Assembly (NCBI RefSeq): GCF_963676685.1
Contig: NC_092345.1
Location: forward strand, 78,678,001-78,742,000
DNA: 64,000 nucleotides
Direction of reading: 5' to 3'
Source of the DNA: Mytilus edulis
Lineage: Eukaryota
Of this stretch, positions 1 to 3,000 are shown piece by piece. Numbering within the stretch: the stretch's first letter is position 1; each line of letters starts with the position of its first letter. The position numbers were made by a program.

Positions 1-3000
1 ACGGACACTATGGTAGATCGGTCCACCGTCATGGACACTCTGGTATATTTGGTCACCGTCATGGACACTTTGGACATCGTCTAGGACGCGTTAGTCACCA
101 TCATGGAAGTTTCGGCCTATTTGGTCACCATCATGGACATCATCATCACCATCACGGACATGTTGGTCACCATCACGGACATTTTGGTCACCATTATGGA
201 CATTTTGGTCACCATCACGGACATTTTGGTCACCATCACGGACATTTCGGTCACCATCATGGCCATCATGGGTACCGTCATAAAGGAAAGTATTACGGAA
301 AAGCTAGGAAGTACTACAAAAAATATAAAAGGACAGGAAATAGTAAATACTACCGGAAATCCCGAAAATATCACAGTAAAGGTTACAAAAAATATTTGTA
401 TTAATTCACATTAAATGTATGAGAATTAGATTTTTTAATTATTCAAATCAATCTACTGTTCTTTATAAATAAGATGTGGTATGAGTACCAATGAAACAAC
501 TCTGCATCCAAGTCACAATGTGTAAAAAGTTATCAATTATAGGTCAAAGTACAGCCTTCAACACGAAGCCTTGGCTCACACTTAAAAACAAGCTATTAAG
601 GACCCCAAAGTGACATGCTTAAAACAATTCAAACAGGAAACCCAACGGTCTAATCCATAACAAAAACGAGAAACGATAAACACGTATGAACACGACCAAC
701 AAACAACAACCACTGAAAAACAGGCTCCTTGGAGGGAAATTTGGACGAACAAATGAAAAAAAGGGGTATAAAATGTTAGATAGGAGCAGGAACTTTGCCT
801 TGCAAATGGCCACCCTGTACCCCTTACAAACTTGTTGGAAGTAACTTGTTAGCACTAGAATCGTAATGCGTTTCTTTAGTACATAAATGTAGCTGTCTTT
901 GTTTTTTATATGCCCTTTCTCTTCTTTCTCATATCGTTCATTTTAAATCAATAATATTGCAGAACGAGGCATTGATCTATGTATCATTTGAAGAAAAAGA
1001 AAAAAAAAGAGTTGGTACTTTCCTTTTGATCTTTCATTAATGTACTTCGATCAAATGCAAATATGCTTCCATTTTCTTATTGTAGACCTGTATCGCAGTG
1101 TAGTTTGATTGAACTTAATATTTCCGACTTGCATGGGATTGATTAAAGTTAGAAAAACTATTTCTGCACCATAACAAGATAATTGCATTAAATCAAACAA
1201 GGATGTCTTAAGAGTTGAATGAATGAATTTATTTATTTGCAAAAAGCATTTACATGCTATGGCAATCAAAACATATATTACATATATGACACAATAATAA
1301 ACAGCAGAAAACAACACATCATACAAAGTGAAGTAAGAATTTGACATCTCATTTTCCATACTGCCTTAATATAATTACATAATTTTATAGTTGCTGTTTT
1401 ATTGACAGCTTTTAACAATTGATCCAGTTTATAAATATTTGGCCAAGAACAAAAGTATTTTGGTAAATAATGTGACCTTGCAGGTCTTTATACAGGACAA
1501 ACTAAAACAAAATGATATTCGTCTTCAACAACGTTCATATTACAACAAAGACACAATCGTAATTCTCTTGGCGTATTGGTATATCTACCAACTTTGATAT
1601 TTAATTGAAGTGTCCCACTACGTAGTTTCGTAAGTAATCGATCATCACAAAATAAATTTAAGTAATTTTCAAGACAAAAATCTGTCTTGATTCTTTTATA
1701 CATGCAAAGTTTTTCACAATCACATAAAGATGTGGACCACTCTTGAAAATATTGATCAGTAATACGTTTTTTAACAATATCAAAAACTACATTAGTTTAT
1801 AGTTACATCCTGTGAAATCCACAAAAAGTTCAGGCCAAGATTAGACAATAAATCTCGTACATAAGAATCCCAATTTGTTTTACCATTAATAACATCTTTA
1901 TACAGAAGCATGTAAACATCGTGAACAACACTTGTTTTTTTTTCAATAAAATATGAAACCAATATTTTAAAAGTATAGTTAACTTTTAAAGAATAGCACT
2001 AAGTAAAAACACGCAGAATCTTTACATGAAATGCTATATAGTTATATGAGATAGACATTCGGAAATTAGAAAACAGGAAAAGCTTAAAAATAAAGAAAAA
2101 ACAAATTATACGAATGAGCATTAACATTTTAAGCCACGATGCTACACAATATTTTTACTTCACGGGATATTTTAGAATTGATTGTATTGCTGCTGTAAAT
2201 TCAAATCCCATTTAAGAGAGCAAATACCTTCAGATATTGATTTATGTTTTATAATGTTGGGCTGTGTCTCTTTAGAAATACACATATTTCATTCCTTTTA
2301 ACTATTTATTTAAGTATTCATAATAATATGAAAACACGTAAAAGATTTTTTTAAAAACCCATTAAGAAAGAAAAAGTTAAATGTATACATCCGCTAATGT
2401 TTTTTCCGATTTGATCAGTTTTCCTTCATTCCTACATTATTGACACTGACGTATACTTTGTTGGATATTTCCTTTCATTAATATGTAGAGTTCGGGTGGG
2501 ATTGTACTTCATGTTCATATGATGAAGACATAATCTTTCAAGCAGTTTAACTGAGGTCTGGAGCTGACATGTCAGTAGCTGCTAGTAGTCCTTTGTTAAT
2601 TTATTTATCATTGTCATTTTGTTTAGTTTCTTTCGTTACCTATTCTGACATCGGACTCGGACTTCTTTTGAACTGAAATTTACTGTGCGTATTGTTGTGT
2701 GTTTGTTTTTTCTATATTGGCTGGAGGTTAATGGGTTGAGGGTTGAAATCTCAAAAACATGTTTAACCCCGCCGCATTTTTTAGCCTGTCGCAAGTCAGA
2801 GGGGCCTCTGTCCTTTGTTAATCTTGTGTGATTTTTAGTATACATTTTTGTTTAGGGTCCAACTGAAGCACCCCTCCGGTAGCATTGAAGACCCGGGTGT
2901 TCTCTGCTCTTTGGTCGGGTTGTTGTCTCTTTGACACACACCCCATTTCTATTCTCAGTTTTATTCAGTTTGAAACAACATCAACTATTCAGCAGTTTAC

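What the first reader, a model, noticed from the sequence alone, without database searches (positions are those of the whole stretch)
3..404. Hidden byssal adhesive protein: His/Gly/Phe repeat block fused to an mfp-5-like Lys/Tyr tail
Seen: the frame from nt 3, absent from the ORF track, encodes GHHHGHF heptads (21-nt repeat GGTCACCATCACGGACATTTT) followed by a K/Y-rich tail. Known: mfp-5 is a Dopa/Lys surface primer, His-rich blocks in byssal proteins bind transition metals in a pH-dependent way, and mfp-9 has a His/Gly + Lys/Tyr block layout. By hand, about 28 of 40 tail residues match the mfp-5 C-terminus as recalled. Inference: a diblock protein coupling interfacial adhesion with His-metal cohesion, possibly an unreported Phe-containing paralog.
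Basis: partly seen in the sequence, partly recalled or inferred. Interest (0 to 1): 0.8.

Follow-up and report, generated by a model that had tools for sequence, protein, structure and literature searches.

The report
Mussel fp-5-like gene end with histidine repeats
The left edge of the window holds the end of a gene for a mussel glue protein of the foot-protein-5 kind, in which a long histidine-rich repeat precedes the usual lysine/tyrosine adhesive tail; it is probably real, but nothing here shows that it is expressed or unreported.

Summary
The frame from nt 3 is open for 133 codons to TAA at 402-404. It encodes an 89-aa His/Gly/Phe block and a 44-aa Lys/Tyr tail. It is missing from the ORF track only because it runs off the window edge.

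The tail is a true fp-5 relative. By eye, 28 of 37 residues match M. californianus fp-5 residues 53-89 as printed in PMC7018726. 14 of 17 match an Mfp-5 segment printed in PMC7403305. Composition-matched random orderings reached these values in 0 of 100,000 and 1 of 200,000 trials.

Fp-5 already has a short Gly/His/Tyr stretch just before this cluster. The His block therefore reads as an amplification of fp-5's own motif, with Phe where Tyr stood.

It is not an Mcfp9 allele by the printed features: no GGHH, no Trp/Pro/Asp, too long, too many Tyr.

Signal peptide, expression and Dopa could not be tested. No mollusc sequence collection could be searched, so novelty is unproven. The metal-cohesion-plus-adhesion mechanism is inference.

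The parts
3..401 (+). Visible 3' part of a coding sequence (133 codons). The 5' end, start codon and any signal-peptide exon lie off the left edge of the window.
   Evidence: Open frame. The frame is fixed by tail homology to fp-5. GC is 42.9% against 31.6% in the next 3 kb.
3..122 (+). Degenerate, Arg-containing His/Gly repeats with a decapeptide-like 30-nt period, then weak 21-nt units.
   Evidence: TRF: 3-73 period 30, 2.4 copies, 85%; 48-107 period 21, 2.9 copies, 69%. In-frame units are listed.
123..269 (+). Seven in-frame 21-nt units encoding G-H-H-H-G-H-F type heptads.
270..401 (+). Lys/Tyr-rich tail of 44 aa (13 K, 12 Y, pI 10.3).
282..392 (+). 37-aa stretch matching fp-5 (Mcfp5 residues 53-89) at 28 of 37 positions without gaps.
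   Evidence: Coordinates. Comparator printed in PMC7018726. Count made by eye. Control.
402..404 (+). Stop codon TAA.
410..415 (+). ATTAAA, a candidate polyadenylation signal 6 nt after the stop. Its use is unproven.
   Evidence: An interspersed repeat starts at about 467.

Best explanation
Nt 3-404 is the last coding stretch of a mussel foot-protein gene of the fp-5 (mfp-5) family. Its product keeps fp-5's C-terminal Lys/Tyr cluster. The short Gly/His/Tyr stretch that precedes that cluster in canonical fp-5 has been amplified into a block of at least 89 aa made of Gly/His heptads, with Phe in the aromatic position.

Inferred mechanism, none of it shown here:
- The protein is secreted from a foot gland at acidic pH, where the His block is polycationic and soluble.
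- Tyr residues in the tail are hydroxylated to Dopa. Together with flanking Lys they prime the surface.
- At seawater pH the His block loses its charge. It then gives cohesion through His-metal (Zn/Cu/Ni) coordination and aromatic/cation-pi contacts.
- Phe cannot become Dopa, so the block stays out of the redox chemistry.

Shown: the frame, the repeats and the tail homology.
For: - The frame is open for 133 codons.
- The tail matches Mcfp5 53-89 at 28/37 without gaps, in identical blocks of 7, 3, 6, 2, 1, 4 and 5 residues (by eye). 0 of 100,000 random orderings of the same composition reach 28; the maximum was 21.
- 14/17 match the Mfp-5 segment of PMC7403305. 1 of 200,000 random orderings reaches 14.
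- Residue lists in PMC7018726 section 14 give Mcfp5 G43 S44 H45 G46 Y47 H48 G49 H50 G51 Y52 K53, and Y90 Y91. Canonical fp-5 thus has a Gly/His/Tyr stretch directly before the cluster.
- The window shares H-G-Y there, with two extra residues, and Y after the final K-K. The homology therefore crosses the block junction, which argues against an intron between the blocks.
- Codons differing from the majority unit split 4 synonymous to 5 non-synonymous in this frame. The shadow frames give 3/8 and 0/10.
- Published context: acidic storage, curing near the His pKa, and His-Zn cohesion in plaque (PMC13022425 passages). Lys-Dopa synergy appears in the PMC7403305 abstract.
Against: - No start codon, signal peptide or upstream exon is visible.
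- There is no expression or peptide evidence.
- Pfam gave 0 families. PDB gave only E>1. The ESM Atlas gave no usable hit in 2 of 2 calls.
- Repeat differences fall 5/3/5 over codon positions 1/2/3. There is no third-position excess, so no clear sign of purifying selection.
- Two shadow ORFs are open as well.
- The protein is not fp-5-like in size (at least 133 aa against a 96-aa precursor) or in overall Tyr content (10.5% against 20.8%).
- The identity counts were made by eye against text in papers, not by an alignment tool.
- No tool established the organism.
Confidence: 0.65

Rival explanations
1. It is this species' counterpart of the already described plaque-gland protein mfp-9 (Mcfp9 v1/v2). 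It would then be known and not a new paralog.
For: PMC7018726 says Gly and His are the most abundant residues in both Mcfp9 variants, with pI 9.74 and a signal peptide. The window peptide has H 32%, G 21% and pI 10.6. Low-complexity foot proteins diverge fast between species (general knowledge).
Against: - GGHH occurs 0 times here against 2 (v1) and 4 (v2).
- There is no W, P or D here, while Mcfp9 v1 has W76, P79, D27 and D29.
- The extinction coefficient of 17420 fits 1 Trp + 8 Tyr, against 14 Tyr and 0 Trp here.
- The Mcfp9 precursor has 125-128 aa, against at least 133 visible aa here.
- That paper reports a positive charge cluster for Mcfp5 and Mcfp12 but mentions none for Mcfp9.
Confidence: 0.15
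2. It is a non-expressed duplicate or decaying fragment of an fp-5 gene, in which a coding minisatellite has expanded. The open frame persists only because 21-nt repeats keep frames open.
For: Three reading frames stay open through the repeat. There is no third-position excess among unit differences. An interspersed repeat starts 63 nt after the stop. There is no evidence of expression.
Against: The degenerate 5' part (nt 3-122) still keeps only this frame open and keeps the Gly/His pattern. Frame +1 has a stop there and frame +2 has several. The non-repetitive 44-codon tail is intact and 76% identical to fp-5 over 37 aa. ATTAAA follows the stop.
Confidence: 0.12
3. Only the Lys/Tyr tail is coding. 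The His/Gly repeat would be intronic minisatellite DNA upstream of an internal splice acceptor.
For: AG dinucleotides exist at 284 and 289. Nothing seen here shows how fp-5 genes are split into exons.
Against: Both AGs lie inside the stretch that already matches fp-5, which starts at nt 282. The 20 nt before them are only 35-50% pyrimidine. The H-G-Y before the cluster is shared with Mcfp5 H50-G51-Y52, so homology extends upstream of any such acceptor.
Confidence: 0.04
4. It is a His/Gly-rich cationic secreted peptide with a non-byssal role, such as an antimicrobial or metal-scavenging peptide of haemolymph or mucus.
For: Composition only: very basic (pI 10.6) and 32% His. That His/Gly-rich cationic peptides can be antimicrobial is recalled, not tested.
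Against: The tail shows specific homology to a plaque primer protein.
Confidence: 0.04

Closest known systems
Mussel foot protein 5 (Mcfp5, ABE01084.1; Mfp-5 of other Mytilus)
   Same: The C-terminal Lys/Tyr cluster matches at 28/37 identical to Mcfp5 53-89, including the non-repetitive landmarks K-R-T-G and R-K-Y-H. 14/17 match an Mfp-5 segment. A Gly/His/aromatic stretch lies directly upstream of the cluster. Both are basic.
   Different: Mcfp5 is a 96-aa precursor of 10.9 kDa with 20.8% Tyr. Here at least 133 aa are visible and Tyr is 10.5% overall. An 89-aa His/Gly/Phe repeat stands where fp-5 has about 27 mature N-terminal residues. The C-terminus ends 3 residues after the cluster, against 7 in Mcfp5.
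Mcfp9 v1/v2 (AST36127.1, AST36129.1), plaque-gland candidates of DeMartini et al. 2017
   Same: Gly and His are the most abundant residues. The pI is basic. Both are small foot proteins.
   Different: No GGHH, no Trp/Pro/Asp, more Tyr, and longer. The sequences themselves could not be fetched and the source paper is not held.
His-rich byssal domains: mfp-4 repeats, preCol termini, mefp-12 coiled coil
   Same: These are His-rich blocks in byssus proteins, proposed to give pH-switched metal-mediated cohesion (passages).
   Different: The mfp-4 motifs HRHVH and HVHRH are absent from the peptide (0 by reading). mfp-4 has 770-810 aa. mefp-12 has 9.1 mol% His in a predicted helical coiled coil with globular domains. 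Here His is 46% of a Gly-rich block modelled without structure.
Engineered hybrid HRfp-1 (mfp-4 His-rich domain fused to mfp-1 decapeptides)
   Same: The design logic is the same: His-Zn bonds give cohesion while Dopa is kept for the surface (PMC12817120 passages).
   Different: HRfp-1 is synthetic and built from different parts. The window would be a natural single-chain version built on fp-5.
Gly/His-rich structural proteins of other invertebrates (Nereis jaw Nvjp-1, squid beak HBPs)
   Same: They have Gly/His repeats with aromatic residues and pH-triggered assembly (PMC9999432 passages).
   Different: The repeat units differ, they have no Lys/Tyr adhesive tail, and the taxa are unrelated. 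The resemblance is likely convergent.

Membership tests
mfp-5 (foot protein 5) family | C-terminal Lys/Tyr-rich positive cluster homologous to fp-5 residues 53-89 | tested here: met
   28/37 identical without gaps (by eye). 0 of 100,000 composition-matched orderings reach 28. 14/17 to the Mfp-5 segment.
mfp-5 (foot protein 5) family | Gly/His/Tyr stretch immediately N-terminal to the cluster | tested here: met
   Mcfp5 G43-Y52 from residue lists. The window has Gly/His heptads ending in H-G-Y, then two extra residues before the cluster.
mfp-5 (foot protein 5) family | Small size: about 96-aa precursor, mature protein of just over 74 aa | tested here: not met
   At least 133 aa are visible without a start, against 96 aa and 'over 74 amino acids'.
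mfp-5 (foot protein 5) family | Very high Tyr/Dopa content over the whole protein (about 20-30 mol%) | tested here: not met
   Tyr is 14/133 = 10.5% overall. The tail alone has 12/44 = 27%. Mcfp5 has 20.8% Tyr.
mfp-5 (foot protein 5) family | N-terminal signal peptide | not testable with these tools
   The 5' end lies off the window.
mfp-5 (foot protein 5) family | Plaque-gland expression, Dopa and phosphoserine modification, location at the plaque interface | not testable with these tools
   No expression or proteome data are on hand.
mfp-9 (Mcfp9) | Gly and His are the most abundant residues | tested here: met
   H 43 and G 28 of 133, against the statement in PMC7018726.
mfp-9 (Mcfp9) | GGHH repeats (2 in v1, 4 in v2) | tested here: not met
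   0 GGHH and 0 GG in the visible 133 aa.
mfp-9 (Mcfp9) | Precursor of 125-128 aa with 1 Trp and 8 Tyr (from extinction coefficient 17420), with Asp and Pro present | tested here: not met
   At least 133 aa, 0 W, 14 Y, 0 D, 0 P.
mfp-9 (Mcfp9) | Direct sequence similarity to AST36127.1 / AST36129.1 | not testable with these tools
   The accessions cannot be fetched. DeMartini 2017 is not held.
mfp-4 His-rich repeat proteins | HRHVH / HVHRH motifs and the H.HVH.H.VL periodic element | tested here: not met
   Neither pentapeptide occurs in the peptide (read directly). The motifs are as printed.

The most novel reading that the evidence does not exclude
This is an unreported natural diblock glue protein. 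An fp-5 paralog amplified fp-5's own Gly/His/Tyr motif into a long His heptad array and swapped Tyr for Phe. One chain would then carry a Dopa/Lys surface primer and a Dopa-free, pH-switched His-metal cohesive block. That is the design which engineers reached independently with His-rich/Dopa hybrids.
Probability: 0.25. Interest if true: 0.6.

Novelty: new variant of a known kind. Interest (0 to 1): 0.4.

Why it matters
If it is expressed in the plaque gland, it would be a natural example of keeping adhesion and cohesion chemically apart within a single small protein. Adhesion would come from the Dopa/Lys tail and cohesion from the His-metal block.

The recent literature raises this issue twice:
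- His-rich plaque proteins are said to challenge the Dopa-centred view of mussel adhesion (PMC13022425).
- Engineered hybrids were built to solve the same trade-off (PMC12817120).

It would also show how a foot-protein family diversifies, namely by amplifying an internal coding motif. If it is merely the local form of a described protein, or a silent duplicate, it is ordinary.

Tried and rejected
**Database searches.**
- Pfam on the peptide gave 0 families at E up to 10.
- PDB sequences gave 3 hits, all with E above 1, all chance matches to Lys/Tyr-rich helices.
- The ESM Atlas gave no usable hit for the whole peptide or for residues 88-133.

**Shadow ORFs.** The ORFs at 103-414 (+) and 117-374 (-) gave only sub-threshold Pfam noise (E 6.8 and 0.028, both below cut-off). 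I rejected them because the tail homology fixes the frame.

**Paralogs in the window.** tblastn and blastn of the peptide and DNA against the window found none. The best other hit, at 3387-3578, has E 0.003 and 24% identity in AT-rich sequence. I took it for chance.

**Structure.** AlphaFold2 on the single sequence gave mean pLDDT 59.
- Residues 1-90 scored about 40-53 and residues 1-61 have no secondary structure.
- A helix is drawn from residue 62. It reaches pLDDT 92-93 only in the tail, at residues 101-120.
- I give the helix little weight because the model is single-sequence and low-complexity. I ran no fold search on it.

- No biological paper prints the His-block motifs GHHHGH or HGHFGHH. 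The only matches were unrelated text in a signal-detection paper and a quantum-computing paper.
- Mcfp9 appears only in PMC7018726. Mcfp-9p is listed by name in PMC6680511.
- No paper describes an fp-5-like His-rich protein.
- This covers only the held library. It is not proof that the protein is unpublished.

**What stayed unchecked.**
- DeMartini et al. 2017 is not held, so the primary description of mfp-9 was not seen.
- Supplements are closed. File S5 of PMC7018726 (full residue lists) might have shown more of Mcfp9 and Mcfp5.
- As a result, nothing was compared with any mollusc genome, transcriptome or protein set.
The window has no N, and I took no contig for human.
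Full report
**What is there**

The window is 64 kb, 31.6% G+C, and has no N. At its left edge the frame starting at nt 3 is open for 133 codons and ends with TAA at 402-404.

The peptide falls into three zones.
- **Nt 3-122.** Degenerate Gly/His units that also hold Arg, Ser, Val, Ile and Leu. TRF finds a 30-nt period at 3-73 (2.4 copies, 85%) and a weak 21-nt period at 48-107.
- **Nt 123-269.** Seven in-frame 21-nt units. They encode heptads of the G-H-H-H-G-H-F type. 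The exact heptad occurs 3 times and the loose pattern 6 times.
- **Nt 270-401.** A non-repetitive 44-aa tail with 13 Lys and 12 Tyr.

Overall composition is His 43, Gly 28, Tyr 14, Lys 13, Arg 10 and Phe 8 of 133. There is no Asp, Glu, Cys, Pro or Trp. The visible mass is 15.8 kDa and the pI is 10.6.

**Is it more than chance?**

- The 21-mer with up to 3 mismatches occurs 7 times, all at 51-248 on the + strand. 0 were expected in 100 shuffles.
- An open run of 133 codons has probability 2.2e-5 at window composition and 3.2e-4 at the ORF's own composition.
- Repeats do keep several frames open, however. ORFs at 103-414 (+) and 117-374 (-) are open too. Neither has a meaningful Pfam match.
- The frame is missing from the ORF track only because the ORF lister leaves out ORFs that run off an end of the source.

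**Which frame, and what family?**

No sequence collection holding molluscs was open to me, so I searched the literature with short motifs from the window's own translation.

Two papers print fp-5 sequence.
- PMC7403305 (one passage seen) gives a 17-aa part of Mfp-5. The window matches 14 of 17 positions without gaps.
- PMC7018726 (passages and part 1 of 4 of section 14 seen) prints residues 53-89 of Mcfp5. This is M. californianus fp-5, ABE01084.1, a 96-aa precursor.
- The window stretch at nt 282-392 matches Mcfp5 53-89 at 28 of 37 positions without gaps. The identical blocks are 7, 3, 6, 2, 1, 4 and 5 residues long.
- The shared blocks include landmarks that are not mere Lys/Tyr runs.

I made both counts by eye, because I did not type paper sequences into tools.

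As controls I shuffled strings with the comparators' residue counts against the real tail.
- 1 of 200,000 orderings reached 14/17.
- 0 of 100,000 reached 28/37; the maximum was 21.

This fixes the reading frame in the tail and shows real relatedness to fp-5.

**The junction**

The residue lists in section 14 of PMC7018726 give Mcfp5 positions G43 S44 H45 G46 Y47 H48 G49 H50 G51 Y52 K53, and Y90 Y91. Canonical fp-5 thus already carries a ten-residue Gly/His/Tyr stretch immediately before the Lys/Tyr cluster.

In the window the last heptads end in H-G-Y. Two extra residues follow, and then the cluster begins. After the final K-K the window has Y, as Mcfp5 does at position 90.

Three points follow from this.
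- The homology runs across the boundary between the two blocks, which argues against an intron between them.
- The only AG dinucleotides nearby, at 284 and 289, lie inside the matched stretch and have weak pyrimidine tracts.
- The most economical origin of the His block is tandem amplification of fp-5's own Gly/His/aromatic motif. Phe (TTT/TTC) stands where Tyr stood, a one-base difference.

That origin is inference.

**Weak or contrary evidence**

- Differences among the seven units fall 5/3/5 over codon positions 1/2/3.
- They split 4 synonymous to 5 non-synonymous in the His frame. The shadow frames give 3/8 and 0/10.
- This only mildly favours the frame and gives no clear sign of purifying selection.
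- Pfam, PDB sequences and the ESM Atlas gave nothing.
- AlphaFold2 on the single sequence models the first 61 residues without structure. A helix follows from residue 62, and only at residues 101-120 does it reach pLDDT 92-93. I give that helix little weight.
- No start codon, signal peptide, transcript or peptide evidence exists here.
- No tool named the organism. 'Mussel' rests on the fp-5 homology alone.

**The 3' end and neighbours**

- ATTAAA lies at 410-415, 6 nt after the stop.
- From 467 to 729 runs an interspersed repeat with copies at 44933-45192 and 48385-48556.
- No second copy of the gene occurs in the window.
- The next clear gene is an intronless rhodopsin-type receptor ORF at 5131-6123.

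**Comparison with mfp-9**

The only held paper that describes Mcfp9 is PMC7018726. It reports the following.
- v1 has 128 aa and v2 has 125 aa, each with a signal peptide.
- The pI is 9.74.
- Gly and His are the most abundant residues.
- GGHH occurs twice in v1 and four times in v2.
- The extinction coefficient is 17420, which fits 1 Trp + 8 Tyr.
- Named residues include D27, D29, W76 and P79.

The window peptive shares the Gly/His richness but fails the rest: no GGHH, no Trp, Pro or Asp, 14 Tyr, and more visible residues than the whole Mcfp9 precursor. It is not an Mcfp9 allele.

Distant orthology cannot be excluded. The accessions could not be fetched and DeMartini et al. 2017 is not held.

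**Mechanism**

This is inferred and rests on published context, not on any result here.
- Plaque proteins are stored at pH 3-4 and cure on meeting seawater at pH 8.2, with a critical pH near the His pKa. His-Zn coordination drives scaffold formation (PMC13022425 passages).
- Flanking Lys and Dopa act together in surface binding (PMC7403305 abstract).
- Short fp-5-derived Lys/Tyr peptides coacervate once Tyr is converted to Dopa (PMC9526746 passages).

On that basis the tail would be the surface primer and the His block a pH-switched, metal-binding cohesive block. The block would be soluble and repulsive in the granule and cohesive in seawater. With only 2 Tyr in 89 residues, it would stay largely outside Dopa redox chemistry. 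Engineers built the same division of labour into the hybrid HRfp-1 (PMC12817120 passages).

**Verdict**

- The tail homology and the diblock layout are real.
- The mfp-9 link fails the printed features.
- 'Hidden' is a window-edge effect.
- The function is a sound but untested inference.

I file it as working like, and related to, mfp-5. It is not a canonical mfp-5, because size and overall Tyr content were tested and not met. I rate it a new variant of a known kind.

The caveat is plain: no mollusc sequence set could be searched, so it may already sit in public gene models or transcriptomes. Interest is 0.4.

Noticed in passing
window 5131-6123 (+): Intronless 330-aa ORF of the rhodopsin family of 7-TM receptors (Pfam 7tm_1, E 1.4e-30). 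It is the next clear gene downstream of the finding.
   Followed up: partly
window 52779-54896 (-): 705-aa single-exon ORF with RING and B-box zinc fingers and a weak NHL/beta-propeller C-terminus. This is a TRIM-like architecture.
   Followed up: partly
window 467-729; copies at 44933-45192 (+) and 48385-48556 (-): Interspersed repeat of about 260 nt at 69-70% identity, starting 63 nt after the stop codon of the finding. It may bound or sit within the 3' UTR.
   Followed up: partly
window 2525-2854; copies at 59474-59798 (-), 11469-11595 (-), 58167-58280 (-): A second dispersed repeat family, 81-84% identical between copies.
   Followed up: no
window 3-73 (+): The 5'-most visible part of the ORF has a 30-nt (decapeptide) period with Arg, unlike the 21-nt heptads further on. 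The protein may hold more than one repeat type upstream of the window.
   Followed up: partly
window 35372-35938 (-) and 1488-1703 (-): Two ORFs of 188 and 71 aa. By recalled resemblance only, they look like remnants of retroelement proteins: one has a Y-I-D-D type motif, the other a Cys/His-rich end. Pfam gave no family for the first at E up to 0.01. The second was not scanned.
   Followed up: no
window 282-401 (+), residues 94-133 of the peptide: AlphaFold2 on the single sequence draws the Lys/Tyr tail as a helix. pLDDT is 92-93 over residues 101-120 and falls to 80 and 59 in the last two ten-residue blocks. That is at odds with the usual view, recalled, that fp-5 is disordered, and it is possibly a low-complexity artefact.
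   Followed up: no
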